Below, piece by piece: positions 13,837 through 59,248 of a stretch of DNA of 64,000 bases. Every line of letters starts with the position of its first letter. The stretch's first letter is position 1. The DNA is from an uncultured Chloroflexia bacterium. Lineage in GTDB: Bacteria; Chloroflexota; Limnocylindria; QHBO01. Where the stretch lies: contig CAWCQX010000011.1 of NCBI GenBank assembly GCA_963797855.1, positions 24,887-88,886 on the forward strand, in the 5' to 3' direction. Position numbers and translations under genes: made by a program. The notes below the pieces were generated by a model that saw only the letters and a program-made list of their open reading frames with translations, was not told the DNA's origin and did not search any database.

Positions 13837-13942
13837 CGCCCGCCGCCTGGTTGTGGAATCCGGAGCGACGGCGCGTAGAATCTGCGGGATCGGTGGCTCG
13901 GACCGGCCGCGGCCACGCATCACCTGACGCCGAGGACCAACC

Positions 13943-15388
13943 ATGACGCTCACCGCCACCCGCCCGCAGATGTTCATCGACGGTGACCGGACCGATGCCG
14001 CCTCCGGCGAGACGATGGCGGTGATCAACCCGGCCACGGAGGAGGAGATCGCGCAGGTCCCGAAGGGCGACGCCTCCGACGTCGATCGGGCCGTGGCCGC
14101 AGCCCGCGCCGCCTTCGAGAGCTGGTCGCAGTCGACGCCGCAGGATCGGTCAAAGGCCCTGTTCGCGTTCGCCGACGCCATCGAGGGCGACGCCGAGACG
14201 CTCTCGAGCCTCGAGCAGGCGAACGTCGGCAAGCCGAAGGGCACCGCCGACTTCGACGTCGAGTTCACCGTCGACAACGTCCGCTTCTTCGCCGGCGCCG
14301 CCCGGGTGGTCGAGGGCAAGGCGGCGGGCGAGTACATCAGCACCCACACCTCGATGCTCCGCCGCGAGGCCGCCGGCGTGGTCGGCCAGGTCGCGCCGTG
14401 GAACTACCCGCTGATGATGGCGATCTGGAAGCTCGGCCCGGCGCTCGCCGCCGGGTGCACGGTCGTCCTGAAGCCCGCGTCGATGACGCCGCTCTCCGCC
14501 CTCCGCATCGCGGAGCTCGCCGCCGACATCTTCCCGAAGGGCGTCTTCAACGTGGTGACGGGCCCGGGGGCCGTCGTCGGGGATCGGCTCATCCGTCATC
14601 CCGACGTCGACATGGTGTCGCCTCACCGGTGACACGGCGACCGGCAAGGAGATCGCCGCCGCCGCGGCGCAGACCGTGAAGCGGGTGCACCTCGAGCTCG
14701 GTGGCAAGGCTCCCGTGCTCGTCTTCGACGACGCCGACATGGACGCGCTCGCCGAGACGATCAAGCTGGCCGGCTTCTTCAACTCGGGCCAGGACTGCAC
14801 GGCCGCCACGCGCCTGATCGTGATGGGCGACGGATATGACCGGGCGCTCGAGGCGTTGGTGCCCGCCGTGGAGTCGATCAAGGTCGGCGACCCCGCCTCC
14901 GATCCGGAGCTCGACATGGGGCCGATGGTGAGCAGGGCCCAGCAGGAGCGCGTCGCCGGCTTCGTGGACCGCGCGCGAGGCTCCGGTGCCGAGGTCGCCG
15001 CCGGCGGCGAGACGTTCGGGGACCGCGGCTACTTCTACGGCCCTCGATCGTGACCGGTGTGGCACAGGATGCCGAGATCGTGCAGTCCGAGGTCTTCGGA
15101 CCGGTCGTCACCGTCCAGCGATTCAGCGACGAGGAGGAGGGGATCCGCTGGGCGAACGGCGTGCCATACGGCCTGGCGGCGTCGGTGTGGACGAAGGACA
15201 TCAAGCGCGCCTTGCGGGCGGCGAAGGCCCTTCGCTACGGCACGGTCTGGATCAACGACCACCTGACGATCGTGTCCGAGATGCCGCACGGCGGCTTCGG
15301 CCAGTCCGGCTACGGCAAGGACATGAGCAGCTACAGCATCGAGGACTACACGATCGTCAAGCACGTGATGGCGAAGATCGCCGACTAG
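13943..15388 (+). CDS. NAD-dependent aldehyde dehydrogenase (aminobutyraldehyde/betaine-aldehyde DH-like; two frameshifts near 14625 and 15045)
   Basis: Three ORFs are joined by homology: [31 protein letters not shown]; [18 protein letters not shown]...[13 protein letters not shown]; [12 protein letters not shown]...[10 protein letters not shown]...[13 protein letters not shown]. Confidence 0.88.
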
Positions 15389-26226: not shown

Positions 26227-27250
26227 CTAGCAGGCCCGCACGGCGTCTCCGATCAGGCCCGGGCCGGTGTAGATCATCCCGGTCCACAGCTGGACGAGGT
26301 CGGCTCCGGCCTCGATCGCCGCGGCAGCGTCCGCCCCGGAGGCAATCCCGCCCGAGGCGACGATCGCCAGCCGGTCCGAACCGATTCGACGGGCCTCCGC
26401 GACGGCCCCGAGCGTGAGCGGGCCGAGCGGCGCGCCGGAGAGGCCGCCGGTCTCATCGGCCGGCCCGGATCGCAGGCCGACCCGGACCGTCGTCGTGTTG
26501 CTGAGGACCACGCCGCGCGGCGACATCGGTCAGACGCGCGGACGATGTCCGCGCGGCGGTTGTGGGTCAGGTCCGGCGAGAGCTTGACGATGAGCGGCTG
26601 AGCCGGCGCGGCCTCGCGGACCATGGCAAGGAGCTCGTGGAGCCGCTCCGGGTCCTCGAGGTCGCGCAGGCCGGGCGTGTTCGGCGAGCTGACGTTGATG
26701 GCGAGATAGTCGGCCACCGTCGGCGACGGCGCGGGCCGCGGTCGGGTAGTCGTCGACGTCCCCGTCGCGGTTGCGGCCGATGTTGACGCCGACGACGAAG
26801 CCCTCGGGCAGCCGCGGCCGCGCAGCGCGCGATCCGGCTGGGCCAGCGCCTCGGCGCCGGCGTTGTTGAACCCCATGCGGTTGATGAGCGCGCGGTCGCG
26901 CGGCAGGCGGGTGAGCCGTGGGCGCGGATTGCCCTGCCTGCGGACGGGGCGTGACGGTGCCGAGCTCGACGAAGCCGAACCCGAGCGCCGCCCAGCCCTC
27001 GATGGCGATGCCGTCCTTGTCGAATCCCGCGCCGAGCCCGACGCGGTTGCGGAAGCGCAGCCCGATGACCTCCACCGGGTCGCGCGCCGCATCGGCTGCC
27101 CCGACGCCGGACGCGAGGCGGCAGAGCGCCGGCAGGCGTCGTCCGGACGGTCGCCAGCAGGTCGAGGGTCGTGTGATGGATCGCCTCGGCGTCGAACGCG
27201 AAGAGGAGCGGCCGCGCCGCGCGGTAGGCGGTCCGGCGCCAGGCGCTCAT
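26227..27250 (-). CDS. pyrD: dihydroorotate dehydrogenase (quinone), class 2 (multiply frameshifted)
   Basis: Colinear fragments lie in three frames: [20 protein letters not shown]; [18 protein letters not shown]...[15 protein letters not shown]; [12 protein letters not shown]; [19 protein letters not shown]; [10 protein letters not shown]; LSGAPLGPL...[36 protein letters not shown]. Confidence 0.85.
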
Positions 27251-36945: not shown

Positions 36946-37575
36946 ATGACCGACAATCGCCTGAGCGCCGCCATCCACCAGACGATCGCGGATCCGATCG
37001 TCCAACCGGCTGGCGCGGCCTCCGCCCTTGCGACGGACGCTCCGCTCGACGAGCTCGCTCGCGCGGCAAGCGCCGGCGACGTCGAAGCGGTTGGGCGCCT
37101 GTATGACCAGCTCGTCGGGCCGATCTATCGATACATCGCCGTCCGGGTTCGGCGTCGCGAGGACGCGGAGGACCTGACCCACCTCGTCTTCGAGCGGATC
37201 GTGACCGCGCTGCCTCGCTACCGCCACGACGGGAAGCCGTTCTCGGCCTGGGCGTTCCGGATCGCGCGGAATGCCGTGATCGATCACCTTCGTCGAACCC
37301 GCCGCACCGAGCCACTGGACGTGATCCCGGAGCGAGACGACACGGGCGGGCCCGATGCGGTCAGCCTGCGAGAGGAGGAGATCCGCGAGCTGCGGGCGGC
37401 CATCCTGCGGCTGACGCCGGATCAGCGCGAGGCACTCATCCTTCGATACGCGGGCGGCCTCTCGGCCGACGAGGCCGCGCAGGTGATGGGTCGACGCGCG
37501 GGCACGATCCGCGGGCTGACGTTCCGCGCGATCGAGGCGCTGCGGCGCCAGCTGGGCGGGGCGCAGGACCGATGA
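36946..37575 (+). CDS. ECF-type RNA polymerase sigma-70 family factor
   Basis: The ORF is intact. Region 2 reads [29 protein letters not shown]...[18 protein letters not shown]. Region 4 reads [45 protein letters not shown]. Confidence 0.9.
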
Positions 37576-38487
37576 GCCTCTTCACGAACCCCATCCGTCC
37601 CGCGCCGATCGCCTCCGACGCGGCGGTTCGCCGCTACATCGAGGCGATTCGACGGCAGATCGAGCCCGATCCGCTCTATCGGCGACGCCTCCGGGGCGAG
37701 GTCGTCAATCGATTCGTCGCCCAGAAGCGCGGCATCGATCTGACCGGACCGCGACGGCCGTCGCGGATGGGCGCGCTCGGGCGGGCATGTCTCTACGCGA
37801 GCTTCGCGCTGGCGGTGAGCGTGACCGGCGTGATGGCGGCCTCCGACGCGGCGATTCCCGGCGACGTCCTCTACCCGCTGAAGCGCAGGCATCGAGGAGA
37901 TGCGGCTCGACGTGCTCCCCGACGAATACCACGACGAGCTCGCGGTCTACGCCCTCTCGGAACGGATCGGTGAGCTCAGCCAGCTCGTCGAGGCTGGCGA
38001 CGTCGCGCGCGCGTCGACGCTCGCCGGCTCGATCCACGATGCCTACGAGCAGGCGGTGGCCGAGGGCGGCGACGCGGACGGGCTGGCGAGACGGCTCGAC
38101 CGGCAGGTCGCGCGGCTCGCGCAGGTCGTGAGCGGCCTTCCGTCGCAGGCACGTGCCTCGATCGCGCATCGCGATGGCCGGAGCTCCCGGCCTGATGGTG
38201 GACGCCTGGGCATCCGACGGCTCCGAACCCGGAGCCGAGCCGGCAGCATCGTCACGGCGGGCCCGGCCAGGGACCCGGTTCCGGTCGAGGCCAACGGATC
38301 GGACCAGGGGAGCGGGCCGCCGGTGCGCAGGACGACGATCCGTCGCCGGACGCCACGCCGAAGCCCGAGCGCACGCCGAAGCCGGACCGCACGCCGAAGC
38401 CGGAGCCCACTCCGAGCGACGATGCGAGCGCGCACGCCGAAGCCAAGCCCGAAGGGCCAGGCGAAGGGTCACGCACCGGCTCCCTGA
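37572..38487 (+). CDS. membrane-anchored anti-sigma-like protein (DUF5667-like; frameshifted, 3' end uncertain)
   Basis: The start overlaps the sigma gene stop (ATGA). A TM segment reads ACLYASFALAVSVTGVMAA, followed by PGDVLYPLKRR and a helical region LDVLPDEYHDELAVYALSERIGEL. The tail TPKPERTPKPDRTPKPEPTP is readable only in another frame. Confidence 0.5.
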
Positions 38488-38518
38488 GGCGCGGCCACAC
38501 GTCAGCGAACGAATCAGA

Positions 38519-38550
38519 AGACGGGATGGAGGCGAACCTCCATCCCGTCT
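38519..38550. terminator. perfect 14-bp-stem hairpin between convergent genes (bidirectional terminator candidate)
   Basis: AGACGGGATGGAGG (38519-38532), loop CGAA, CCTCCATCCCGTCT (38537-38550). On the minus transcript the loop is UUCG. There is no U-tract. Confidence 0.55.
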
Positions 38551-38610
38551 CTGCCAGGGGGCTGGCTGAATCGCGCGAGGCCGGCATCTCCGGCCCCGCG
38601 CGTTCGGACC

Positions 38611-41600
38611 CTACCGGCGGCGGCTCCGCGCCTTCACGTTCGCCAGCGCCATCGCGCCGAGCGAGCCGAGGAAGACGACTGCGAGGAGCTCCACCGGGAC
38701 CGTGATCGGCTGACCGTTCGGGGCGATCCCGACCGCGGTGTCCGGCACGGATGGCTCTGGGGTCGGCGTCCCGCCCTGCGGCGGAGGCTCGACGACCACG
38801 GTCACCGCGTCCTCACCGTCGTCCGGATCGGTCTCGTCGGAGTCGATGACCGCAACGTTCACCGTCGGGGCGACGCGGGAGATCGTCTCCGGGTCGACCG
38901 TCGTGCGGAACGTCACGCTCCCGCTCTCCGTGAGCGTCGCGAAGGTCCACGTGACCACGCCGTCGATGAGCTGTCCGCCATCGGAGGCATCGAGGAACTC
39001 GAAGCCGGCGGGGACCTCATCGGTGATCACCGCGTTGGTGACCGGGCCCTCTGTAAGGGTGTACGTCAGGGTCCAGGTCACGATCGACGGATCGGCAACG
39101 AGATGGTCGCTGGGTCCGCTGATCGTGATCACCTCGGCGTCGGCAACCTTGTCGATCACGAGCTGCGGGCAGCGGACGTTGAGGTCGTCGGTGGACGAGA
39201 CCTCGTCATCGTTGCTCGCGTCCGCGAAGGCCGTGTTCTCCATCAGGCCGCAATCGTCCTGATCGGTCTCCGCGAAGACCCGGATGATCACCCCGTCCTC
39301 CATCGAGGAGGCGCGAGATCACCGAGGTCGCAATCGATCGAGCGCTGCTCGTCGCTGCCGAGAGCCAGGCTGCTCGCGATGGTGCAGTCGGCGGTGCCCT
39401 GGAGGACTTCGACGTCCCATGGGAGCCCGGCCGGGAGATCATCGTGCAGCTCGACATCAAAGGCAGTGCCAGGTCCGGCATTCCACACCGTGATGGTGAA
39501 GCTCGCCTCCTCGCCGGCGACGACCTCATCGGCGTCGGCGGTCTTGACGATGTTCAGGCCGGGGCACTCGACGATGATCGTCGCCTCGGCCTCGTTGTCG
39601 GGTCCGATGTTGGCTGCAGGCTCGTTCGACGCCGAGACCTCGACGTTGTTGACGAGCGACCCGCAATCGGCCTCGGACGTGAGATAGCTCAGGAGGATGG
39701 TCGCCGCGCCGGGCGCCATCGACTCCGCGGTGCACGAGTCACCGGCGTCGTCGATGGTTGCCGGGCAGTCGAACCCGCCGTCGTCGACCACGGTCCAGAC
39801 CGTGCCGGCCGGCGCGAAGTCGAGCACGTCGACGTCGAAGGCCGTTCCGGGTCCGTGGTTGGTGACATGGATCGCGAAGTAGGCCGTCAGTCCGGCGTCG
39901 ACGGGCTCATCCGTCGGCTCGCCGTTCGCGTCGACCTGCTCCTTGGTCACCTCGAGGTCCGGGCAGTTGACGGTGATGCGTCACGCCTTCGCCCTCGGGA
40001 TGAGAGGCGCCGCTGCCGGCGTTGTCCGAGGTGTAGGCGGCGCGGTTCAGGATCGACGGGCACTCGCCCTCATCGGTCGTCCCCGTCACCGTCACGCTGA
40101 ACTCCTCGCCCGCCGGGATCGTCAGATCCAGGCAGCTCAGGACACCGGCGGTGATCGAGCAGGCGGCGCTGTTCTCGGTCCAGGTGAGCCCGCTCGGAAG
40201 CGTGTCCACCAGGTCGACTCCCGTGGCCGGCGCGTCGCCGGTCTCATTGGAGATCGTGACCGTGTACGAGGCCTCCTCGCCCGCGTTGATCTCGGGCGTC
40301 GTGGTCGACTTCGAGATCACGAGATCCGGGCACAGCACCTCGGTGCTGTCCGAGGACTTGACCTCGTCATGGTTGGACGCATTCGCCCTGGCTTCGTTCA
40401 GGTACTCGCCGCAGCTGTCCCCGGTGGTGTCGCTGCTGAGCTCGATCCTCACGCCCTCGCCGGGAGCGAGGTCGCCAAGGTTGCACTGGAGATCCTCATC
40501 CGGCGGGCTGCCCGCGATCGAGCAGAGGCCCGTCGGATCGAAGCCACCGATCCCGGTGACCGAGTCGATCTGCCAGTCGATGCCGTCGCCGAAGGGCAGG
40601 GCATCGTCCAACGTGACGTCCTTCGCCACGCCGGTGCCCGGTCGCGCCGCTGTTCTCCAGCTCGATCGCGAACCCGATCGGGTCACCGGCGGTGACCGTC
40701 TCGTCGTCCGCGGTCTTGAGGATGCTCAGAGCTGGCGCCAGCGTGCTGTTGTTGAACGAGACGCTGCCGGAGCAGTCGGGAAGGGTGATCGTGTCGACCT
40801 GGTCGGTATGGTCCGCCCAATTCGACTGGGGAACTTCGTGGACGGTGTACGTCCCTGGAGCGAGGCCCGTCAGCGTGGTCGACTTCGACAGCGAGTCACC
40901 GAAGTTGAAGGTGATCGCTGCGTCGTCGCTGAAGCCACTTGGCCCGCTGACGTCGAAGTTGAAGGTCACCGACTCGCCGGCTCGAAGCGATCCGGCGGGA
41001 ATCGTCTTGTTGATCTGGAGGCTGACCGAAGCGGTCGACGCGATCGCGACGCTGGCGCTGGCCGTATCGAGCACGCTGCTCCCGTCGCCGGTGATCGTGG
41101 CCGTATCGGAGAGGGTTCCACTCGTGATCCGCGGCTGGTCGACGGTGACGGTCTTCGTGAACGTCACCGATCCGCTGTTCGTGGCCGTGAACTGCCAGCC
41201 GACCGGGCCGGTGGTCGATGCGCCGGCGACATAGCCGCCGGTGAACGCGCCGACCGACGGAGCCGCGACCGAGAAGGCCAGGCCCGTGCCGGTGATCGAC
41301 TCGGTGTCGCTGACCACGACCGACGACTGCGCCGGGGCACCGGCCGCCGGGAGTGGCCGTCGCCGATGCCGTTGCGCTTGTCGCGCCAGGCACCGGGATG
41401 CCGGTCACCTTGTCGGTGTACGTCGCCGTGGCGACGTCGTTGAAGGTCGTCGCCGAGCCGCTGTAGACGAAGCTGTGGCTCAGCACGACCATCGAGGTGA
41501 GGGCGGGAACATCCACCGCCGCGCCGGTTGTCTGGTCGAGCAGGGTCGTCTGAGCGGACCCTTCATAGATCTTGTCCGAGGCCTGGACGGTGATCGTCCG

Positions 41601-42515
41601 GTGCGCAGGGTTGATCGCGGTGACGACGGTGTTGATCGTCGTGGCCCCGCTCGCCGTGGGCCCGGATCGCGTCCAGGCCACGGTGATCTGGACGTTCTGG
41701 CTTCGAGAGCCCGTGGTCTCGAGGCAGGTGTTGGCGAAGTTCAATGAGGTCGGGTTCGCGGACTTCGAGATGTCCCATGCGTACGTCTGGCCAACATTCG
41801 CGCTCATCGTCTTCGAGAGCTCCTGGGGCAGGATCTCGTTGACCGGGATGGAGACATCCGCCGCGCCGATGCCCGACGTGCTGAACTGCTGGTTCGTCCG
41901 GTTCGTGTGCAGCGACGAGCCCGGGAACAGGTGCGACCCGAGCGCGAGGCGCTCGTACCAGTCGATGACGCAGGTCGTGCCCTTGTTCTGGCTGATCGTC
42001 ACCAGCCGGCCGATGGACTTGTCGGTCCCGCCGACGCCCGGCTCAATGATCGTCTCTGGAGCAGAGGTGACGGCGCAGCTGGCGTGCGAGTGCGCCGCAT
42101 TGACGACGGGCGCGCTCAGGACGTCGTAGCCCGGCGCGCCACCGTCCTCGCGGTCGGCCGCGATGCCGAACGTATAGGTGGTTGTCGCATCGGCCTGGCT
42201 GCCGAGGCTCGTCGTCATCCGGTGCGGAACGAGGTCGAGCTCGTTCCACTCCTTGCCGAGGTTGCCGCTCGTATAGGCCGCGTCCTCACATGTGACGGTG
42301 GCCTCGATGAACGCGCCGTTCTCGAGGCGACAGCCTTCGAGGGTGAAGGCGACATGGATTGGGTCGGATGCCGCCGCGGCCACCTGCGGACGGACCGCCG
42401 TCGGTGCGAGCTGGGGGACGGCGGTCGCGATGACCGGGACCAGCAGGTTGAAGAGAAGTGCGATGAAGACAGGAATGACGCTCAGTCGCGTCGCGGTGCT
42501 GGCTCGGGAGTCCAT
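38611..42515 (-). CDS. large (about 1300 aa) surface protein with DUF11-type repeats, a prealbumin/SpaA-like domain and a VPDTA-type C-terminal anchor (four frameshifts)
   Basis: Five colinear ORFs (40896..42515, 40496..41317, 39907..40686, 39288..39950, 38611..39303) make up the gene. The N-terminal signal/TM is RLSVIPVFIALLFNLLVPVIATAV. Repeats read CP.L.[IV].K[TV]AD...V.AGE...[FY]T[IV]...N.G...A..V.L.D.LP.GL.W. LAPGTYTVHEVPQSNW is also present. The tail is GGTPTPEPSVPDTAV...LLAVVFLGSLGAMALANVKARSRRR. Confidence 0.8.
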
Positions 42516-42607
42516 TGGTTTTCAGCCCCTTGGCTCTGGCCGCAGTGCGACCCTCTTGCGTCGATTGACCTCTGGATGAATCGGCCCGCACCTGGTGCGA
42601 GCGGGCG

Positions 42608-42639
42608 GAGCATATGGGGCGGTCAAGTACTTTGGTACC
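42608..42639 (-). promoter_or_regulatory. candidate promoter/operator of the large surface-protein gene (GGTACC-N17-CATATGCT)
   Basis: The minus strand reads GGTACCAAAGTACTTGACCGCCCCATATGCTC, about 95 nt upstream of ATG 42515. A near-identical element lies upstream of the next gene (43579-43611). Confidence 0.35.
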
Positions 42640-42748
42640 CCTGCGCTTGGCGGTTTGACCGGGTCTGGTGGGGTCTGCGGACGTGCGGTGGCCAAGGACG
42701 TGTTGCCGACGCGCAACAAGGGTCCTGGTACCGATGGGGGACAACGAG

Positions 42749-42778
42749 AACGGCCCCGGAGTTGCCTCCGGGGCCGTT
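42749..42778 (-). terminator. perfect 13-bp-stem hairpin after the small surface-protein gene
   Basis: AACGGCCCCGGAG (42749-42761), loop TTGC, CTCCGGGGCCGTT (42766-42778). The loop is GCAA on the minus transcript. It lies 32 nt after the stop at 42810. Confidence 0.55.
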
Positions 42779-42809
42779 GAGGTTGCGCTTGTCCGCTGGT
42801 CGCGTCGGC

Positions 42810-43488
42810 TTACCGGCGCCGTCCCACCATCCGGACAGAGAACAGTGCCGCCAGGGAGCCGACGAGCACGAGGCTCAGAATGAGTGCTGGAACCTGGTCC
42901 GCCAGCCCGGTGGTCGCCGTGTCCGGCACTTCGCCACCTGGAGTTGGCGTCGGGTTGCCGCCGAGCTCGCTCTCACGCGGAGTCGGTGACGGCGTCGGGT
43001 TACCGCCGAGCTCGCTCTCGCGCGGAGTCGGTGACGGCGTCGGCGTCGGGGTCGACTCGATCACCCTCGTCGTAGCAGAACGAGATGTGGCTGATGCCAT
43101 TGCCTGAGCCGTTCTGTGGCCCGAGACCGGTATCGCCGGTCGACTCGGGGTTGTAGACGTACAGGTTGTGCTTGTCGCTGCCGGCCTTCACGAGCACCGC
43201 ATCGACGCCGATGTTCGATGTCCAATCGAAGCCCTTCGGATCACTGTTCGTGAAGTTCGTGATCGTGACGGACAGGGTGCCATCGGTGAACGTGCCATTC
43301 CCCGGCGGATCGACCTTGAGCTCTGTCCAGTCGCCGAAGTTGGAACACGTCGGGTTGTTGTCGTCGCTGATCGGGGTCGGCGTCACGCTGGCCCCCAATG
43401 CCGGCATCGTCAGCGCTGCCAGGAGGCCGAGCGCTGCCAGGAGGCCGACGAGGGTTCGAAGCCCGGTTCGGGCCCTCAGTCCACTCAC
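42810..43488 (-). CDS. small secreted surface protein with VPDTA-type C-terminal anchor (one frameshift near 43060)
   Basis: The GTG start at 43486-43488 is preceded by AAAGGAA. The signal peptide is SGLRARTGLRTLVGLLAALGLLAALTMPALGA. The domain reads ...NPTCSNFGDWTELKVDPPGNGTFTDGTLSVTITNF...GVDAVLVKAGSDKHNLYVYN...GISHISFCY. The tail is 2x SPTPRESELGGNPTP, then GGEVPDTATTGLADQVPALILSLVLVGSLAALFSVRMVGRRR. Confidence 0.7.
42951..43040 (-). repeat. 2 x 45-bp tandem direct repeat encoding SPTPRESELGGNPTP
   Basis: Unit 42951-42995 and unit 42996-43040 differ at 2 positions. A related core (GTTGCC[AG]CCGAGCTCGCTCTC) recurs at 43913-43940 and, diverged, at 43970-43998 in the neighbouring gene. Confidence 0.9.
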
Positions 43489-43578
43489 GATGATTCATTC
43501 CTTTCCCGGTCGGCTGCTGCCGGATGCCCCCCAGACCGATAAGTCCGCGCCGTCTGATGAGCCGGCGATGTGCCGCGC

Positions 43579-43611
43579 GAGTATATGGGTACCGACCAGT
43601 ACTTCGGTACC
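43579..43611 (-). promoter_or_regulatory. candidate promoter/operator of the small surface-protein gene (GGTACC-N18-CATATACT)
   Basis: The minus strand reads GGTACCGAAGTACTGGTCGGTACCCATATACTC, about 92 nt upstream of GTG 43488. It contains the inverted arms GGTACCGA/TCGGTACC around an AGTACT core. Confidence 0.35.
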
Positions 43612-43709
43612 TGTCAAATGACGTACCGCGATTCGGTCTGGTGATGTGCGGTGATGTGGCGGGCCGGGTTGGCGTTGACCAGATCGCACCGAGTACCGCT
43701 GGGGGGGTA

Positions 43710-43743
43710 CGAAACGACCCCCGGTTTCCCGGGGGCCGTTTCG
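43710..43743 (-). terminator. 15-bp-stem hairpin after the first surface-protein gene
   Basis: CGAAACGACCCCCGG (43710-43724), loop TTTC, CCGGGGGCCGTTTCG (43729-43743). The single mismatch becomes a G-U pair and the loop GAAA on the minus transcript. It lies 24 nt after the stop at 43767. Confidence 0.55.
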
Positions 43744-43766
43744 GATCAGCTGGGCCGCGTCGACGA

Positions 43767-44810
43767 TCAGCGGCGTGCGCGCCCAAGGGCGAGCCTGGCG
43801 TAGGTCATCACCGCCAGCGCGAGGATCGCGACGAGGGCGAAGATCGGGACCGTGCTCGATCCCTGACCGGCCAGATCGACCGCCGTGTTCGGCACGGCCG
43901 GCGTCGGCGTCGGGTTGCCACCGAGCTCGCTCTCGCGAGGGGACGGGGTCGGCGACGCGTCGGCGACGGGGTTGGCGTCCCACCGAGCTCGCTCTCGGAC
44001 GGGTCGGCGCGGCGTCGGGCTCGGCGTCGGCGACGGCGTCGGGCTCGGCGTCGGCGAAGGAGTCGGGCTCGGCGGTCGGCGAAGGCGTCGGGCTCGGCGT
44101 CGGCGACGGAGTCGGGCTCGGTGTCGGCGACGGAGTCGGGCTCGGCGTCGGCGACGGAGTCGGGCTCGCGGTCGGCGAAGCGTCGGGCTCGGTGTCGGCG
44201 TCGGCGTCGGCGACGGAGTCGGGGTCGACTCTGCCTCCGTGCAGTTCAGCGAGTTCGTCTTCGAGCTCGAGACGATCGCGCCGTCGTGGCCGGAGGCACC
44301 GGAGCCTCGGTCGCGATCACGCCAAGGATGCCGCCGGTCGAGACGGTGAAGCCGGTCGTCACCGGAACGTCGAACGTCAGCGTTCCGCTGCCGGAGAGGT
44401 TCCCGACATCCAGGACGACGAAGTTGGACTCGACGTCGGCGACATAGCCGGCCGGGTCGCCACCGCCGTTGCCGTTGATGGCGCCCTGGTTCGGGGAGAG
44501 GTACACGACGACGGTGCTGCCGGCCGGCAGCGTGCCGGTGACGTTGTAGTCGAGCTTGAAGGTGAACGATGACGCGCCGTCGTTCGAATCGCAGAACAGC
44601 TGTGCGTTGTTCTGGAACGTGAACGTGGCGGTTCCGCCGTTCAGATCCGAGTAGGGCCCGCTGGTCGGATGGCCGTTGTCGCCGGCGGTGAAGCCGAGGA
44701 CGGTCCCGGGCCGGATAGAGCGCCATCGCCGAAAGCAGAATGGCGACGATCGAGATCAGCACCACGAAGCTGGTGCGCTGGGAAACCTGTCCCTTACCGG
44801 TGACGCTCAA
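43767..44810 (-). CDS. surface protein with long Pro/Thr/Ser linker and VPNTA-type C-terminal anchor (several frameshifts)
   Basis: A TTG at 44808-44810 is preceded by AAGGAGAAAGGGGG. The N-terminal TM/signal is SFVVLISIVAILLSAMALYPA. The central domain lies in ORF 44246..44506 (VVVYLSPNQGAINGNGGGDPAGYVADVESNFVVLDVGNLSGSGTLTFDVP). The tail is PSPT repeats, ESELGG motifs, then AVPNTAVDLAGQGSSTVPIFALVAILALAVMTYARLALGRARR. Confidence 0.65.
   Translation of the reverse strand: MSVTGKGQVSQRTSFVVLISIVAILLSAMALYPARDRPRLHRRRQRPSDQRALLGSERRNRHVHVPEQRTAVLRFERRRVIVHLQARLQRHRHAAGRQHRRRVPLPEPGRHQRQRRWRPGRLCRRRRVQLRRPGCREPLRQRNADVRRSGDDRLHRLDRRHPWRDRDRGSGASGHDGAIVSSSKTNSLNCTEAESTPTPSPTPTPTPSPTLRRPRARLRRRRRARLRRRHRARLRRRRRARRLRRPPSPTPSPTPSPTPSPTPSPTPRRPVRERARWDANPVADASPTPSPRESELGGNPTPTPAVPNTAVDLAGQGSSTVPIFALVAILALAVMTYARLALGRARR
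44014..44228 (-). repeat. about 8.5 copies of a 24-bp tandem repeat (GTCGGGCTCGGCGTCGGCGACGGA) encoding a PSPTPSPT linker
   Basis: Read directly. The units start at 44014, 44038, 44062, 44087, 44111, 44135, 44159 and 44182. The unit at 44062 is 25 bp and the unit at 44159 is 23 bp. Confidence 0.9.
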
Positions 44811-45717: not shown

Positions 45718-45917
45718 CGTAGCGGGATAGCACGAGCCCCGGTGCCCGCCCAATGACACCGGGGCTCGAAGGAGGGAGGGTGGAGGCAGAAACCCGAGGT
45801 GGATTTCTATCTCGCACCGATGAGGCTACGGAGCACGCCTAAACCCCGGGCTTGCCACACCTTAAGAAACCTGAACGTTCCCGGGATTCCGGCGAGGTCG
45901 TGGCAGAATGCGCCGCA

Positions 45918-47220
45918 ATGTCCGCTGCCCAGCGCCTGGCCGCCATCGTCATCGGCGTCATCGTCGTGATCGGGATCGCGGTCGTCGTCCTCAACCTTGC
46001 GGGCGATGGCGTCGCCGCCGATCCGAGCCCGCAGGCATCGGTCTCGCCGGCCGCGTCGCCCACCACGAGCGATGCGCCGACGGACGAGCCGTCACCGGCG
46101 GACGAGGACGACGTCCTGGCCGCCCTCGCCGAGATCGAGGAGCAGGTGATCGCCATCCGCGGCCTGCCCGCCGCCGACATCGGCGCGCCGGAGCTGCTCA
46201 CGCGCGACGAGCTCCAGGACGCGCTGCTCGCCCTCTTCGAGGAGAACTATCCGCCCGAGGAGCAGGCCGAGGACAACGCGTCGCTGCGGGCGCTCGGGCT
46301 GCTCGAGCCGGACCAGGACGTCGCCGCGCTCCAGCTCCAGCTGCTCGGCGACGTGGTCCTCGGCTTCTACGACGACGACGAGAAGCGGATGGTGGTCGTG
46401 ACCGACCAGGGCCTCGACGCCCTGGCGAAGTTCACGTACGCCCACGAGTACACCCACGCCCTGCAGGACGCCGCCTTCGGGATCGCCTCGCTGGACATCG
46501 AGGCAGAGGGCGAGGACGATCGCGCGCTGGCCCGCACCGCGCTGCTCGAGGGCGACGCGACCGTCGCGATGCTGGCATGGGCGTTCGCCAACCTGGAGCC
46601 GCAGGAGCTGGCGGAGATCACGAGCGCGCCCCAGCCCGACACGACCGGGATTCCGTCATGGCTCGTCGAGCAGATCGCCGTCTTTCCCTACAACGAGGGC
46701 TACCTCTGGGCGGGCTCGACTTGCCGGCGACCCGCTCAGCCCGGACTTCACCGAGCTCGATGCCGCGTACGCCGACCCTCCGGACTCGACCGAGCAGATC
46801 ATCGACGTCGAGAAGTGGGATCCGCGCGAAGCGCCGATCCCGGTCGACGGACCCGACCTCGCCGCCGCCTTCGGCGATGGCTGGACCGAGGTCGACGACA
46901 CCCCGATCGGCCAGGCGTTCCTGGAGGACATCCTCGTCTATCACGGGGTCGCGGGCGACGAAGCGCAGGCCGCAGCTGCGGGGTGGGGCGGCGACCAGGT
47001 CGTCGTCGCGACCGGCCCCGACGACGCCTTCGCCGTCGCATGGCGCCTGGTGTGGGACACGCCCGAGGATGCGGACGAGTTCGCCGATGCCTACAACTCG
47101 GTCATCTCCGGCCTCGGCTTCCCGGCATCGGTCACCCGGGTCGACGAGGACGAGGTGCTGATCGCCCACGGCAGCAGCCCGGATGTCCTCCGCCGCGCGA
47201 TCGAAGCGGCCAGCGACTGA
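45918..47220 (+). CDS. membrane-anchored putative zinc metallopeptidase (HExxH; frameshift near 46720)
   Basis: The N-terminus is MSAAQRLAAIVIGVIVVIGIAVVVLNL (TM), followed by a Pro/Ser/Asp linker. The motif FTYAHEYTHALQD (HExxH) is present. The C-terminal part (GDPLSPDFTELDAAYADPPDSTEQI...AAGWGGDQVVV...) lies in another frame and ends at TGA 47218-47220. Confidence 0.55.
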
Positions 47221-47225
47221 CGGTC

Positions 47226-48882
47226 CTACATCGAGTCCGGCGCGGAGATCCCCAGCAGCGCGAGGGCGTTGGACAGGACCGATCGGGTGGCGTCCACGAG
47301 GGCCAGCCGCGCGGCCGATAGCCCGGCGTCCTCGGTGAGCACCTTGCAGTCGCGGTAGAAGGCGCTGAACGCGCTGGCCAGCTCGTACGCATAGCGCGGA
47401 ACCTCGTGGGTCTCGCGCCGGTCGGCAGCCATGCCGACCGCATCGGGGAAGTCGAGAAGGTGGCGGACGAGCGCCCTGCTCGGACGGGTGCGTCAGCAGC
47501 TCCGCGGTCCGCGACGCGTCGGGCACGGCGCCGACCTCGTCGGCGTTCCGGAGAATCGACGAGGCGCGGGCGTGCGCGTACTGGACGTAGTAGACCGGGT
47601 TCTCGTGGCTCTGGCGCTTGGCGAGCTCGAGGTCGAAGTCGATGCCGCTCGTGAATGCGCGTGAGCTGAAGAACCAGCGCACCGGATCGGCGCCGACCTC
47701 GGCCATCAGGTCGTCGAGCGTCACGAACTCGCCCGATCGCTTGCTCATGCTCACGGCCTCGCCATCGCGAACGAAGCGCACCCAGGAATAGAGGAGGATG
47801 CGGACGGCCTCGGGGTCATGGCCGAGTGCGGTGGCGGCATGGAGGAGCCGGGCGACGGCGCCGTGGTGGTTCTCGCCCCAGACGTAGATCAGCTCGTCGA
47901 AGCCGCGGCTGAACTTCTCGCTGACATAGCCGATGTCCGCGGCGAAGTACGTTGGCTGGCCGTTGGATCGAAAGATCACGCGATCCCGATCGTCTCCGAA
48001 GGCCGTCGAGCGGAACCAGGTCGCGCCATCCTCTTCGAAGACGTATCCGGCTTCGCGAAGGCGCTCGACGCCGCGCTTCACCCAACCGTCGTCGTGGACG
48101 GAGCTCTCCGTCTTCCACACGTCGAAGTGGACTCCAAGGGCGTCGAGGCTGGCCTCGATCCCTTCCCGCTGCACCTCGGACGCCCACCGACCGTAGATCC
48201 AGTCGGCCTCGTCAGGCTCGGCAGCCTCGGCGTCGCGCACGACCTCGTCCGGGACCGATGCGGCCATCTCGCCGACGTAATCACCGCGGTAGCCGTCTTC
48301 GGGGAGCGGCGATCCCTGCCGGATCGCGCGCACCGATGCGCCGAGTGCCTTCACCTGCCCGCCGAAGTCGTTGAAGTAGTACTCGCGCGTCACGTCGTGG
48401 CCGGCGGCATCCAGGACGCGGCTCAGCACGTCGCCGACGAATGCGCCCCGCGCGTTGCCGACGTGGAGCGGGCCGGTCGGGTTGGCGCTGACGAACTCGA
48501 CGTTGATCCGCTGCGGCTGGGCTGCGGTCCCGCGGCCGTAGGCGGCGCCGGCGTCCCGGATCGGGCCGACCTGGGCGGCCACCCACGCGGGGTCGAGGCG
48601 GAAGTTCAGGAACCCCGGAGCGGCGACCGAGACCTCGGCCACCGAGACCGGTGGCTCGAAGTGCTCGAGCAGGGTCTCCGCGATCCGGATCGGCGCGGAA
48701 CGCGCGACCGGGGCCAGCTGCATCGCGACGTTGCTCGCCCAGTCGCCGTGATCGGGATTGGCGGGCCGCTCGAGGCCGATCGGTGGCAGATCCGTTCCCT
48801 GCCCGATCGCAAGTGCTCCGGACGATGCCGCGCGGTCGCGCGCATCGGCGATCGCTCGGGAGATCTCGGACCGGACGCTCAT
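47226..48882 (-). CDS. argS: arginine--tRNA ligase (frameshift near 47460)
   Basis: It reads INVEFVSANPTGPLHVGNARGA (HIGH-type motif)...YYFNDFGGQV...MSKRSGEFVTL (KMSK-type). The C-terminal anticodon-binding end comes from ORF 47226..47432, ending ...LLGISAPDSM. Confidence 0.92.
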
Positions 48883-54491: not shown

Positions 54492-56172
<1,681 letters not shown>

Positions 56173-56219
56173 GGGCCGATGATACGGCGGGCCGTCAGGA
56201 AGCTTCGGTGATCGGAAGC

Positions 56220-57697: not shown

Positions 57698-59228
57698 GAG
57701 CCCGCTGGGTGGCGCCGTTGGCGAGCAGGTCCCCCGAATGGACGAGCTCGCGAACCGCGTCGATGTCCGGCGAGGGTGGACGGTCGGCGTCGAGATGGGC
57801 GACCCGCGCCCGGATCGCTGCGTGGGCGGCTGCGACCCCTGCCCCGGGGCGAAGCGGAGCGCGGAAGTCGATGCCCTGTGCCGCGCACAGCGCCTCGATC
57901 GCGATCACCAGCTCGGCCCGATCGACCGCCTCTCGCAGGTGGAGCGCCGACGTGGCTCCCATGCTCACGTGGTCCTCCTGGTTGGCGCTGGTCGGGATGC
58001 TGTCGACCGATGCCGGATGGGACAGCGTCTGCAGCTCGTTCACCAGGGCGGCCGCCGTGTAGTGGGCGATCATCAGCCCGCTCTCGATGCCCGGCCGCTC
58101 GGCGAGGAACGCCGGCAGGCCGGCCGAGAGATGCGCATCCACGAGGCGTGCGGTCCGCCGCTCGGAGATCGACGCCAGCTCCGCGACGGCCATCGTGGCG
58201 TAGTCGAGCGCCAGCGCCAGCGGCTCGCCATGGAAGTTGCCGCCGCTGATCACCGCTCCCGGACGGGAAGACGAGCGGGTTGTCGGTCGCGGCGTTGATC
58301 TCCACGCCGAGGACGCGCTCGAGCTCGGCCAGCGCGTCGCGAGCGGCGCCGTGGACCTGCGGCATGCATCGGAGGCTGTACGCGTCCTGCACCCGGTGCT
58401 CGGTATCGGCGCGATGGGACGCCCAGATCTCGCTGTCCGCCAGCAGCTCGCGCAGGTGCCTGGCCGATGCGACCTGCCCCGGATGCGGGCGCGCGGCGAT
58501 CAGCTCCTCCGCGAAGGCGGCGCCGGTGCCGAGCATCGCCTCCAGGCTCATCGCGCCGACGACGTCGGCGGTCAGCGCCAGCCGCATGGCGTCGTGATGA
58601 GCGAGGGCGCCGATCCCGGCCATCAGCTGGGTCCCGTTGAGCAGCGCCAGGCCTTCCTTTGCCTCGCAGCTCGATCGGCTCGAGCCCGGCGCGCGCCAGC
58701 GCCTCGGCTCCGCCGCCCGGGCCGGCGCCGTCGACGGTCGCCTCGCCCTCCCCGATGAGCACGAGCGCGACGTGAGCCAGCGGCGCGAGGTCGCCCGACG
58801 CGCCGAGGCTGCCGCGCGACGGGACGACCGGATGGATCGCCGCGTTCAGCATCGCGACGAGCAGGTCGACGACCTCGACGCGCACGCCGGAGAGCCCGAC
58901 CGCCAGGGCGTTCGCCCGCAGGAGGAGCATCGCCCGCACGACGTCGTCGGGCAGCGGGTCGCCGACGCCGGCGGCATGGGAGCGGACGAGGTTGCGCTGG
59001 AGGGCCGACGTCTGCGCCGGGTCGACGCGCGTATCGGCCAGGTCGCCGAAGCCGGTGGTGACGCCATAGACGGTTGCGCCGTCGGCCACGAGCCGCTCGA
59101 TCACGGCCCGCGATGCCCGCATCCGATCCGCCGCTCCGGCTTCGAGCTCGACGGCCCGTCGGCCCCGCGCGACCTCGATGACGTTGATCGATGGTGAGGT
59201 CCCGGCCGGTGAGCGGAAGGGGCGGCAT
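57690..59228 (-). CDS. hutH: histidine ammonia-lyase (at least three frameshifts)
   Basis: Colinear fragments: [13 protein letters not shown]...; [16 protein letters not shown]...[14 protein letters not shown]...[16 protein letters not shown] (MIO-forming ASG); ...[15 protein letters not shown]...[10 protein letters not shown]; ...[14 protein letters not shown]...[11 protein letters not shown]. Confidence 0.9.
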
Positions 59229-59248
59229 CGGTCCCTATACTACGCACC

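What the first reader, a model, noticed from the sequence alone, without database searches (positions are those of the whole stretch)
38611..44810. Three tandem surface-protein genes share a non-LPXTG tripartite C-terminal tail (VP[DN]TA), with no sortase in the window
Three consecutive minus-strand genes (44810->43767, 43488->42810, 42515->38611) are organised as separate units. Each has its own signal/TM N-terminus, its own 250-290 bp upstream non-coding region and its own downstream hairpin.

They end in:
- ...QGGTPTPEPSVPDTAVGIAPNGQPITVPVELLAVVFLGSLGAMALANVKARSRRR
- ...LGGNPTPTPGGEVPDTATTGLADQVPALILSLVLVGSLAALFSVRMVGRRR
- ...LGGNPTPTPAVPNTAVDLAGQGSSTVPIFALVAILALAVMTYARLALGRARR

This has the architecture of a processed sorting signal: a motif, a hydrophobic helix and a basic end. 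It differs from known signals in three ways. The motif is VP[DN]TA rather than LPXTG or LAXTG. The spacer to the helix is 7-11 aa. The helix always begins with VP, and a GG[NT]PTP box always precedes the motif.

The nearest described signal I know is LPNTA of class D sortases. No sortase, exosortase, archaeosortase or rhombosortase homologue is visible in the 64 kb. The passenger domains are unrelated to each other (DUF11-repeat adhesin, a small FCY-ending domain, an unknown domain). That argues that the tail is a portable module and not simply paralogue conservation.
Basis: partly seen in the sequence, partly recalled or inferred. Interest (0 to 1): 0.78.

Follow-up and report, generated by a model that had tools for sequence, protein, structure and literature searches.

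The report
Uncatalogued sortase-like anchor tail in Limnocylindria
Three neighbouring surface-protein genes of an uncultured Chloroflexota (Limnocylindria) bacterium end in a shared, conserved C-terminal tail ([V/L]P[D/N]TA, membrane helix, arginines) that looks like a sortase cell-wall-anchoring signal of the LPXTA type, is missing from the curated signal libraries, and has no identified processing enzyme.

Summary
The three tails are in the sequence as quoted, and each gene has its own start codon, signal peptide, 253-294 bp upstream spacer and terminal hairpin. None of the three genes is an intact ORF here. They carry at least 8 frame switches, which are window-wide assembly indels; intact orthologues of two of them exist elsewhere.

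The tail is a portable module. An exhaustive profile search finds 291 protein clusters, with the tail at the extreme C-terminus in nearly all listed members, almost all from Candidatus Limnocylindria. The consensus is a GG[NT][PG]TP box, then [VLI]-P-[DN]-T-A, a 5-13 aa spacer, a helix and RRR.

The passengers are typical sortase substrates (DUF11, isopeptide fimbrial, SpaA, VWA and collagen-binding domains). LPDTA, LPDTS and LPNTA are the experimentally supported class D sortase motifs of Bacillus. I therefore read the tail as a lineage-specific LPXTA-type cell-wall sorting signal.

TIGR01167 and PF00746 do not detect it, although a protein A control is detected. No sortase occurs in the window or in 538 kb of related loci (HMM screen with a working control). 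Whether these genomes encode a sortase could not be tested, so a non-sortase enzyme remains possible (about 0.17).

Verdict: a real feature, a new variant of a known kind, of moderate interest.

The parts
38611..42515 (-). Gene C: large surface adhesin of about 1,300 aa (conceptual). Signal peptide/TM, a ~390-aa N-terminal head with no family match, DUF7507/DUF11 (CLIPPER) repeats, and the tail. Broken by 4 frameshifts at about 41340, 40645, 39980 and 39310.
   Evidence: ORF pieces; GC3 frame map; Pfam/NCBIfam DUF11 and DUF7507; collinear with the intact 1,433-aa P0036 at 79-89% identity, which NCBI/JGI relatives name SpaA isopeptide-forming pilin-related / TIGR01451 repeat protein.
38614..38775 (-). 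Tail C: GGTPTP box (38758-38775), VPDTA (38734-38748), a 13-aa spacer, the helix VPVELLAVVFLGSLGAMALANV, and KARSRRR.
   Evidence: profile hits
38518..38605 (-). Two GC-rich hairpins downstream of gene C (38568-38605 and 38518-38551).
   Evidence: fold -70.1 kcal/mol, z = -7.5; coordinates
42810..43488 (-). Gene B: small surface protein of about 225 aa (conceptual). Signal peptide with an AxA site, a two-Cys domain (VKAG, ISHISFCY), a PT-rich linker made of a 45-bp repeat in 2.2 copies, and the tail. One frameshift in the linker.
   Evidence: collinear with the intact 246-aa P0119 in two frames; family alignment; tandem repeat 42946-43043
42813..42962 (-). Tail B: GGNPTP box (42945-42962), VPDTA (42915-42929), a 7-aa spacer, the helix VPALILSLVLVGSLAALFSV, and RMVGRRR.
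42749..42778 (-). Hairpin downstream of gene B (13-bp GC stem).
   Evidence: z = -3.2
43767..44810 (-). Gene A: surface protein of about 340 aa (conceptual). TTG start with an AAGGAG Shine-Dalgarno sequence, signal peptide/TM, an unassigned beta-rich domain, a long PSPT linker (24-bp repeat in 8.7 copies, 44003-44210), and the tail. At least 3 frameshifts.
   Evidence: the N-terminus matches the signal peptide of P0108 at 77% identity
43770..43922 (-). Tail A: GGNPTP box (43905-43922), VPNTA (43881-43895), a 10-aa spacer, the helix VPIFALVAILALAVMTYA, and RLALGRARR.
   Evidence: P0023 is a near-identical tail from another sample
43710..43743 (-). Hairpin downstream of gene A (15-bp stem).
   Evidence: z = -3.8
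45852..47220 (+). Conserved neighbour, not shown to be part of the system: a membrane-tethered HExxH protein (DUF8575 / Hvo_1808 family), frameshifted here.
   Evidence: adjacent in 19 loci
36946..38487 (+). Conserved neighbour: ECF sigma factor (36946-37575) and a putative anti-sigma factor (37572-38487), convergent with gene C.
   Evidence: Pfam Sigma70_r2/r4; DUF5667 (faint) on the orthologue; conserved in 17 loci

Best explanation
The shared tail is a cell-wall sorting signal of the sortase type, a Limnocylindria-specific variant of the LPXTA (class D-like) signal.

Inferred pathway:
1. Each precursor is exported by its N-terminal signal peptide.
2. The C-terminal helix and arginine cluster hold it in the membrane, with [V/L]P[D/N]TA exposed just outside.
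3. A membrane-anchored cysteine transpeptidase (sortase) encoded elsewhere in the genome cleaves after the Thr.
4. The enzyme transfers the protein to a peptidoglycan precursor or, for some members, to another pilin-like subunit.
5. The PT-rich or acidic linker upstream spans the wall and presents the adhesin domains.

Shown here: the architecture, the conservation pattern, the portability, the type of passenger and the taxon. Inferred: export, cleavage site, enzyme identity and attachment.
For: - Tripartite architecture at the extreme C-terminus in nearly all of the best 150 of 291 clusters.
- The most conserved positions across 108 diverse members are the motif P, T and A plus the upstream G and P. 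The helix keeps only one residue at 90% or more. That fits an extracytoplasmic recognition motif.
- Position statistics over 168 tails: P 166, T 162, A 154, D/N 84/84, and V76/L62/I11 at position 1.
- LPDTA, LPDTS and LPNTA are the motifs that Bacillus SrtD enzymes anchor (PMC3222306). 'Sortase D subfamily 4 recognises LPXTA' (PMC3617157).
- Passengers are the usual sortase-substrate domains: DUF11 in 45-49 of 108, isopeptide-forming fimbrial D2 in 24 of 108 (best E 2.6e-36), SpaH/EbpB pilin-type, SpaA, SdrD_B, Collagen_bind and VWA. NCBI names one member 'SpaA isopeptide-forming pilin-related protein [Candidatus Limnocylindria]'.
- Wall-spanning-type PT repeats precede the tail.
- The sortase family is reported in Chloroflexi (PMC6744442).
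- The three tails differ at DNA level, so the motif is kept by selection and not by recent gene conversion.
Against: - No sortase in the 64-kb window or in about 474 kb of 75 related loci, even though class D sortases are 'often adjacent' to their substrates (PMC3617157).
- The presence of any sortase in a Limnocylindria genome could not be tested.
- The tail fails TIGR01167 and PF00746, which detect a protein A control of the same length. According to PMC3617157, TIGR01167 also recognises Bacillus LPXTA anchors.
- A conserved GG[NT][PG]TP box upstream is not, to my knowledge, a feature of known sortase signals.
- About 4% of tails have G or S instead of the scissile Thr.
- Nearly all tail genes found sit in one conserved locus. 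The substrate set per genome therefore seems small, which would normally go with a dedicated, adjacent enzyme.
Confidence: 0.6

Rival explanations
1. The tail is the signal of a sorting system that does not use a sortase. An unidentified enzyme recognises the extended element GG[NT][PG]TP-x3-[VLI]P[DN]TA and/or the helix. This would resemble the way exosortases, archaeosortases and rhombosortases recognise their own C-terminal signals. It could instead be a membrane-tethered protease such as the conserved HExxH (DUF8575/Hvo_1808-family) neighbour.
For: - No sortase near any of about 65 tail loci.
- No curated sortase-signal model matches, while the control does.
- The conserved upstream box and a recurrent (G/A)SLG..A.ANV helix pattern occur across subfamilies.
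- An extracytoplasmic HExxH protein with an N-terminal TM lies two genes away in 19 loci.
Against: - The HExxH gene is no more tightly linked than ArgS or FTCD, so this is inherited gene order. It also persists in L001, where this locus has lost its three tail genes.
- Its family extends to haloarchaea, where HVO_1808 is just a model lipoprotein.
- No exosortase, rhomboid or archaeosortase domain was found in the window.
- No PEP-CTERM, PGF-CTERM or GlyGly-CTERM model hit.
- The motif is separated from the helix by 5-13 residues. From my knowledge, that is typical of sortase signals and not of exosortase-type signals.
- The motif itself and the passenger domains are sortase-like.
Confidence: 0.17
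2. The tail is an unprocessed C-terminal membrane anchor. The helix and arginines simply tether the proteins to the cytoplasmic membrane. The conserved juxtamembrane P[DN]TA / GG[NT][PG]TP element serves another role, such as a glycosylation site or a rigid stalk.
For: - Architecture alone cannot distinguish this reading. Even authentic sorting-signal fusions are partly retained in the membrane without sortase (PMC3222306).
- No enzyme was identified.
- The T/P-rich context would suit O-glycosylation (inference).
Against: - Near-invariance of four specific positions (P, D/N, T, A) across 291 clusters with otherwise divergent tails is more than a stalk or anchor needs.
- The pattern coincides with a known enzyme recognition motif.
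- Long wall-spanning linkers and isopeptide-stabilised adhesin domains are typical of wall-attached proteins.
Confidence: 0.15
3. A variant of the main explanation: the three genes form a sortase-assembled pilus set, with the big adhesin as tip and the small proteins as shaft and base. The motif would then be used for pilin-to-pilin polymerisation by a class C-like sortase.
For: - The conserved layout of one or two small tail proteins followed by one large adhesin recurs across lineages.
- Isopeptide fimbrial D2 and SpaH/EbpB-type pilin domain hits; SpaA-fold small members such as P0108.
- V or I at position 1 is known in pneumococcal pilins (VPDTG, IPQTG; own knowledge).
- A conserved Lys (VKxG) in gene-B-type proteins.
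Against: - No class C sortase in the locus, whereas pilus operons almost always include one (own knowledge).
- No canonical YPK pilin motif in the gene-B family alignment.
- Each gene has its own terminator-like hairpin.
Confidence: 0.06
4. The similarity is only paralogue conservation or chance and has no function.
For: Genes A and B share a near-identical linker unit (ESELGGNPTP) at DNA level.
Against: - The tails are 41-47% identical at protein level with divergent DNA.
- The passengers are unrelated.
- The module sits on many different architectures in 291 clusters, with profile E-values down to 1e-33.
Confidence: 0.02

Closest known systems
LPXTA-type cell-wall sorting signals of class D ('subfamily 4') sortases: B. 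subtilis YfkN (LPDTA) and YhcR (LPDTS) with SrtD/YhcS; B. anthracis LPNTA substrates; the 23-27 LPXTA proteins of B. cellulosilyticus
   Same: - C-terminal tripartite layout.
- P at position 2, D/N at 3, T at 4 and A (sometimes S) at 5. LPDTA, LPNTA and LPDTS all occur in the family.
- Surface-exposed passengers.
- In B. cellulosilyticus, three of the four sortases are not adjacent to any substrate (PMC3617157).
   Different: - Position 1 is V as often as L.
- A conserved GG[NT][PG]TP box lies three residues upstream.
- Not detected by TIGR01167, which according to PMC3617157 annotates the Bacillus LPXTA anchors.
- The host is Chloroflexota, not Bacillota.
- The passengers are adhesin/pilin-like, not the enzymes typical of class D substrates.
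- The cognate sortase has not been found.
Canonical LPXTG / LAXTG sorting signals (class A, C, E, F sortases; TIGR01167, PF00746)
   Same: Motif, hydrophobic stretch and basic end. Pro/Thr-rich wall-spanning region upstream. DUF11, SpaA, Cna-B-like (SdrD_B), VWA and isopeptide-domain passengers.
   Different: Ala instead of Gly after the scissile Thr (G in 1 of 168). No HMM match for the window tails even at E<=10, nor for family members at E<=1, while a protein A control scores above both curated cutoffs.
Exosortase, archaeosortase and rhombosortase signals (PEP-CTERM, PGF-CTERM, GlyGly-CTERM and relatives)
   Same: A short lineage-specific motif, a helix and an Arg cluster at the C-terminus. 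A portable module on unrelated passengers. The enzyme is often encoded elsewhere.
   Different: In those systems the motif abuts the helix (own knowledge); here it lies 5-13 residues away. No model hit. No exosortase or rhomboid domain in the window. Passengers and motif are sortase-like.

Membership tests
Sortase-dependent cell-wall sorting signal (generic) | Located at the extreme C-terminus of a secreted protein that has an N-terminal signal peptide | tested here: met
   The tail ends at the stop codon in all three genes and in nearly all of the best 150 family members. N-terminal hydrophobic signal sequences were read directly. No dedicated signal-peptide predictor was available.
Sortase-dependent cell-wall sorting signal (generic) | Pentapeptide with conserved Pro at position 2 and Thr at position 4 | tested here: met
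   P in 166 of 168 and T in 162 of 168 tails.
Sortase-dependent cell-wall sorting signal (generic) | Hydrophobic segment followed by a positively charged end | tested here: met
   All three window tails. Across the family, 152 of 168 tails have 3 or more R/K in the last 8 residues, and the spacer to the helix is 3-15 aa.
Sortase-dependent cell-wall sorting signal (generic) | A sortase (PF04203) encoded in the same genome | not testable with these tools
   Only 64 kb of this genome is available. None in the window and none in 474 kb of related loci (SrtA control E 2e-23). The bait search listed only 120 of 7,999 sortases, none attributable to Limnocylindria.
Sortase-dependent cell-wall sorting signal (generic) | Cleavage after Thr and amide linkage to peptidoglycan or a pilin Lys | not testable with these tools
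   Requires biochemistry or proteomics.
LPXTG anchor domain as curated (TIGR01167 / PF00746) | Scores above the curated cutoff of the model | tested here: not met
   No hit for the three tails at E<=10. Not among the 25 families most often matched by 108 members. No hit in 9 further members at E<=1. Positive control: the protein A tail scores 25.3 bits against a 15.9 cutoff and 38 bits against a 20 cutoff.
Class D (subfamily 4) sortase LPXTA substrates | Motif LPXTA, or LPXT[AS] | tested here: inconclusive
   Positions 2-5 fit (A 154, S 13 of 168). Position 1 is L in only 62 of 168, V in 76, and I/Q/M/T in 30. All three window tails have V.
Class D (subfamily 4) sortase LPXTA substrates | Class D sortase present, often adjacent to a substrate | tested here: not met
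   Adjacency is not met in any locus. Presence elsewhere in the genome was not testable.
Exosortase/archaeosortase (PEP-CTERM, PGF-CTERM etc.) and rhombosortase (GlyGly-CTERM) signals | Match to the curated signal model; the family's motif directly preceding the helix; cognate enzyme present | tested here: not met
   No such NCBIfam model hit. The motif lies 5-13 aa from the helix. No exosortase or rhomboid Pfam domain in the window.

The most novel reading that the evidence does not exclude
Limnocylindria lack a conventional sortase for these proteins. In that case GG[NT][PG]TP-x3-[VLI]P[DN]TA-helix-RRR would be the signal of a previously unrecognised protein-sorting system in a monoderm phylum, with an enzyme of a new family. 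The always-neighbouring membrane-tethered HExxH DUF8575/Hvo_1808-family protein is the only concrete candidate, and it is untested.
Probability: 0.17. Interest if true: 0.8.

Novelty: new variant of a known kind. Interest (0 to 1): 0.42.

Why it matters
Candidatus Limnocylindria is an uncultured Chloroflexota class recovered here from many soil and other environmental metagenomes. Nothing is published on how it displays surface proteins: a full-text search for Limnocylindria together with sortase returned no paper.

A conserved, easily searchable C-terminal signal does four things:
1. It allows annotation of the exported, probably wall-anchored adhesins of this class. Current pipelines call them 'hypothetical' or 'TIGR01451 repeat protein'.
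2. It argues for a peptidoglycan-containing monoderm envelope with covalent protein anchoring in this lineage.
3. It justifies a new curated model, because TIGR01167 and PF00746 miss the whole family.
4. It gives a clean test, by phylogenetic profiling of the tail against sortase classes, that will either extend LPXTA-type sorting beyond Bacillota or reveal a new sorting enzyme.

Tried and rejected
- **Automatic back-translation of the tail alignment** for a genome scan failed because no stretch was conserved enough. I replaced it with hand-written degenerate DNA patterns.
- **Guilt by association** in the neighbourhoods of P0104, P0130, P0158 and P0092. The contigs were too short.
- **Neighbour clustering** over 29 and then about 65 loci. 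Only inherited synteny emerged (FTCD-ArgS-HExxH-MBL-tail genes-anti-sigma/ECF sigma-aminotransferase) and no candidate enzyme.
- **Regex screens for the sortase TLxTC motif**. I judged them too narrow for class F-like 'LRLITC' motifs, relaxed them, and then replaced them with an HMM built from real sortases.
- **Bait search** with three consensus-style sortase domains written from memory, used only as a probe. All 120 listed hits were genuine PF04203 proteins. None was on a contig of known Limnocylindria length, and the named ones were Thermoleophilaceae, Acidimicrobiales and Bryobacteraceae. This is uninformative, not negative.
- **Canonical LPXTG/LAXTG tails** in 488 kb of Limnocylindria DNA: none found, but the sample is biased towards tail loci.
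- **HExxH neighbour**: no PDB relative. It belongs to the Hvo_1808 family and has no known sorting role.
- **Pilus hypothesis**: no YPK pilin motif in gene-B-type proteins.
- **Weak hits of six members to the YfkN-type nucleotidase model**. I did not trace them to a region of the profile, so they are not used as evidence.
- **Structure prediction** of the gene A and gene B passenger domains was not attempted. It would not bear on the tail.

Full report
**1. What is in the sequence**

They end at 38611, 42810 and 43767. Each gene has:
- its own start codon (ATG 42515, GTG 43488, TTG 44810) with a Shine-Dalgarno-like sequence;
- a hydrophobic signal-peptide/TM N-terminus;
- an upstream non-coding spacer of 294, 278 or 253 bp;
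- a strong GC-rich hairpin just after the stop, with folding z-scores of -7.5, -3.2 and -3.8. A consensus terminator scan does not call them because they lack a clear T-run.

The description of three separate transcription and translation units is therefore sound.

**2.

None of the three is an intact ORF in this window.
- GC3 frame mapping and collinearity with the intact 1,433-aa orthologue P0036 (79-89% identity over five segments in three frames) place four frameshifts in the large gene, at about 41340, 40645, 39980 and 39310.
- Gene B is collinear with the intact 246-aa P0119 except for one frame switch in its linker.
- Gene A changes frame at least three times, partly within a 24-bp repeat present in 8.7 copies.

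The same kind of break splits ArgS, aldehyde dehydrogenases, histidine ammonia-lyase, urocanase and others across the window. Syntenic contigs from the same ENA assembly series behave differently: L002 and L026 show such breaks, while L001 and L027 are largely intact. Short-read MAGs carry intact ORFs of up to 1,627 aa. These are assembly indels, not pseudogenes. From memory, the 'MFD' MAGs that dominate the relatives are long-read assemblies.

**3. Organism**

A degenerate DNA pattern for GG[NT]PTP-x-P-x-[VLI]P[DN]TA, scanned over one genome per GTDB species, found 21 stretches. All were real tails, though three were cut short or out of frame. Nearly all came from 'Candidatus Limnocylindria', 'uncultured Chloroflexia' MFD MAGs or 'Chloroflexota bacterium', with GC of 0.67-0.73. 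NCBI names for cluster members also say Candidatus Limnocylindria. Three contigs labelled Steroidobacteraceae, Nocardioidaceae and Ilumatobacteraceae carry nearly identical tails and are probably mis-binned; that is my inference.

**4. The tail as a family**

- A profile of the three tails retrieved 32 proteins at E down to 3e-22.
- An exhaustive HMMER search of 1.84 billion representatives with an enlarged profile found 291 clusters at E<=1e-3, of which 93 are at E<=1e-10. In nearly all of the best 150 the match lies at the extreme C-terminus, on proteins of 44-1,624 aa.
- Over 168 tails: position 1 is V 76, L 62, I 11, Q 10, M 5, T 4. Position 2 is P in 166. Position 3 is D 84 and N 84; my pattern required D or N there, and two further tails carry LPSTA. 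Position 4 is T in 162. Position 5 is A 154, S 13, G 1.
- A TP-containing box (NPTP 68, TGTP 34, other TP 46) lies just upstream in 148 of 162 tails. The spacer to the helix is mostly 5-13 aa. In 152 of 168 tails, 3 or more of the last 8 residues are R/K.
- Across 108 diverse members, the columns conserved at 90% or more are the box G and P and the motif P, T and A. The helix keeps only one Leu, and the tail one Arg.

The three window tails differ at DNA level, apart from the ESELGGNPTP linker unit shared by genes A and B. The motif is therefore maintained by selection on a portable module.

**5. Passengers**

Scanning 108 members gave:
- DUF11 in 45-49;
- isopeptide-forming fimbrial D2 domain in 24 (best E 2.6e-36);
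- SpaH/EbpB-type pilin domain in 7;
- SpaA-fold, bMG10, DUF7507, DUF7927, VWA, SdrD_B, Collagen_bind and GramPos_pilinBB domains.

These are the domains usually found on sortase substrates of monoderm bacteria. Gene-B-type small proteins share a signal peptide, a two-Cys domain (VKxG, ISHxxFC), a hypervariable PT-rich or acidic linker, and the tail.

**6. Known signal models**

The three tails hit nothing in NCBIfam or Pfam at E<=10. Among the 25 families most often matched by the 108 members there is no anchor or CTERM model. Nine further members gave none at E<=1. A 58-aa protein A tail run the same way scores above the curated cutoffs of TIGR01167 (25.3 vs 15.9 bits) and PF00746 (38 vs 20 bits). 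The negative result is therefore meaningful. Public annotation calls these proteins 'hypothetical', 'TIGR01451 repeat protein' or 'SpaA isopeptide-forming pilin-related' and never 'LPXTG anchor'.

**7. The enzyme**

- Pfam over a frameshift-tolerant coding inventory of the whole window shows no sortase, exosortase or rhomboid domain.
- An HMM built from 120 genuine PF04203 proteins finds nothing in 538 kb of six-frame translation of the window plus 75 loci (best E 3.1). It detects the distant S. aureus SrtA at 2e-23.
- A second DNA pattern, for the GGTGTP-type register, brought in about 36 more true loci from JGI metagenomes.
- Nearly all loci share one gene order: FTCD, ArgS, HExxH (DUF8575/Hvo_1808 family), MBL-fold protein, small tail protein(s), large adhesin, usually anti-sigma and ECF sigma, then an aminotransferase.
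- Because housekeeping genes are equally fixed in position, this synteny does not nominate an enzyme.
- Whether Limnocylindria genomes encode a sortase elsewhere could not be tested. The bait search returned only the best 120 of 7,999 sortases, none attributable to the lineage.
- The literature reports the sortase family in Chloroflexi in general (PMC6744442). No paper mentions Limnocylindria together with sortase.

**8. Interpretation**

LPDTA and LPDTS are the signals anchored by B. subtilis SrtD/YhcS, and LPNTA is the signal of B. anthracis SrtD (PMC3222306). 'Sortase D subfamily 4' enzymes recognise LPXTA, and in B. cellulosilyticus three of the four such sortases are not adjacent to any of the 23-27 LPXTA substrates (PMC3617157).

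The tail here has the same positions 2-5, the same tripartite layout and sortase-type passengers. I read it as a Limnocylindria-specific LPXTA-type cell-wall sorting signal served by a sortase encoded elsewhere (confidence 0.6).

Several points keep alternatives open:
- V is as frequent as L at position 1;
- the upstream box is conserved;
- the curated models fail to detect the tail;
- the tail genes are confined to one locus;
- no nearby sortase was found.

The alternatives are a non-sortase processing enzyme (0.17), an unprocessed membrane anchor (0.15), a pilus-assembly variant of the main reading (0.06), and mere paralogy (0.02).

**9. Verdict**

The tail is a genuine, portable and uncatalogued sorting-signal-like module. 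It sits close to a known kind (LPXTA/class D) and not outside all known kinds. I classify it as a new variant of a known kind, of moderate interest. One clear computation, sortase profiling of complete Limnocylindria genomes, would either make it ordinary or make it important.

Noticed in passing
whole window, e.g. 46618-48882 (ArgS), 13928-15385 (aldehyde dehydrogenase), 57822-59233 (histidine ammonia-lyase), 54495-56196 (urocanase), 26230-27147 (dihydroorotate dehydrogenase): Many housekeeping genes are split over overlapping reading frames. The window comes from an indel-rich assembly, so any 'pseudogene' or 'short ORF' call in it is suspect.
   Followed up: partly
45852-47220 (+): A membrane-tethered HExxH...EGDAT protein (PF26686 DUF8575; NCBIfam Hvo_1808 family surface protein, E 2e-44, below the curated cutoff; no PDB relative). 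It lies two genes from the tail genes in 19 loci. Its function is unknown. Its haloarchaeal namesake is known only as a model lipoprotein.
   Followed up: partly
36946-38487 (+): An ECF sigma factor and a putative DUF5667-like anti-sigma factor sit convergent with the large adhesin. The pair is conserved next to it in 17 loci but absent in some GGTGTP-type lineages (L033, L034, L071, L072). It may regulate the surface-protein cluster.
   Followed up: partly
L001:9657-10300: In an otherwise syntenic, well-assembled 390-kb contig, all three surface-protein genes are missing. Only a 99-aa ORF remains, consisting of the last DUF11 fragment plus the tail, between the MBL gene and the gene on the anti-sigma side.
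   Followed up: no
43003-43488 (-) and P0046 residues 41-169: The small two-Cys passenger domain of gene B (VKAG, ISHISFCY) also occurs as the N-terminal domain of a 1,375-aa tail-bearing adhesin (33% identity). This points to domain shuffling among tail proteins.
   Followed up: no
44003-44210 and 42946-43043: The linkers are tandem DNA repeats: 24 bp in 8.7 copies encoding PSPT units, and 45 bp in 2.2 copies encoding SPTPRESELGGNPTP. Orthologues use quite different linkers (acidic EESQP or SVEES repeats), so this region evolves fast.
   Followed up: partly
41370-42515 (-): The ~390-aa N-terminal 'head' of the large adhesin has no Pfam or NCBIfam match but is well conserved among orthologues (for example GSHL[FY]PGSSLHTNRTNQ). 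It is presumably the ligand-binding part.
   Followed up: no
L007:5327-8000, also L017 and L023: A few tail proteins (229-1,181 aa, LPDTA type) lie in a different context, which in L007 is next to TadE/TadG-like Flp-pilus assembly genes.
   Followed up: no
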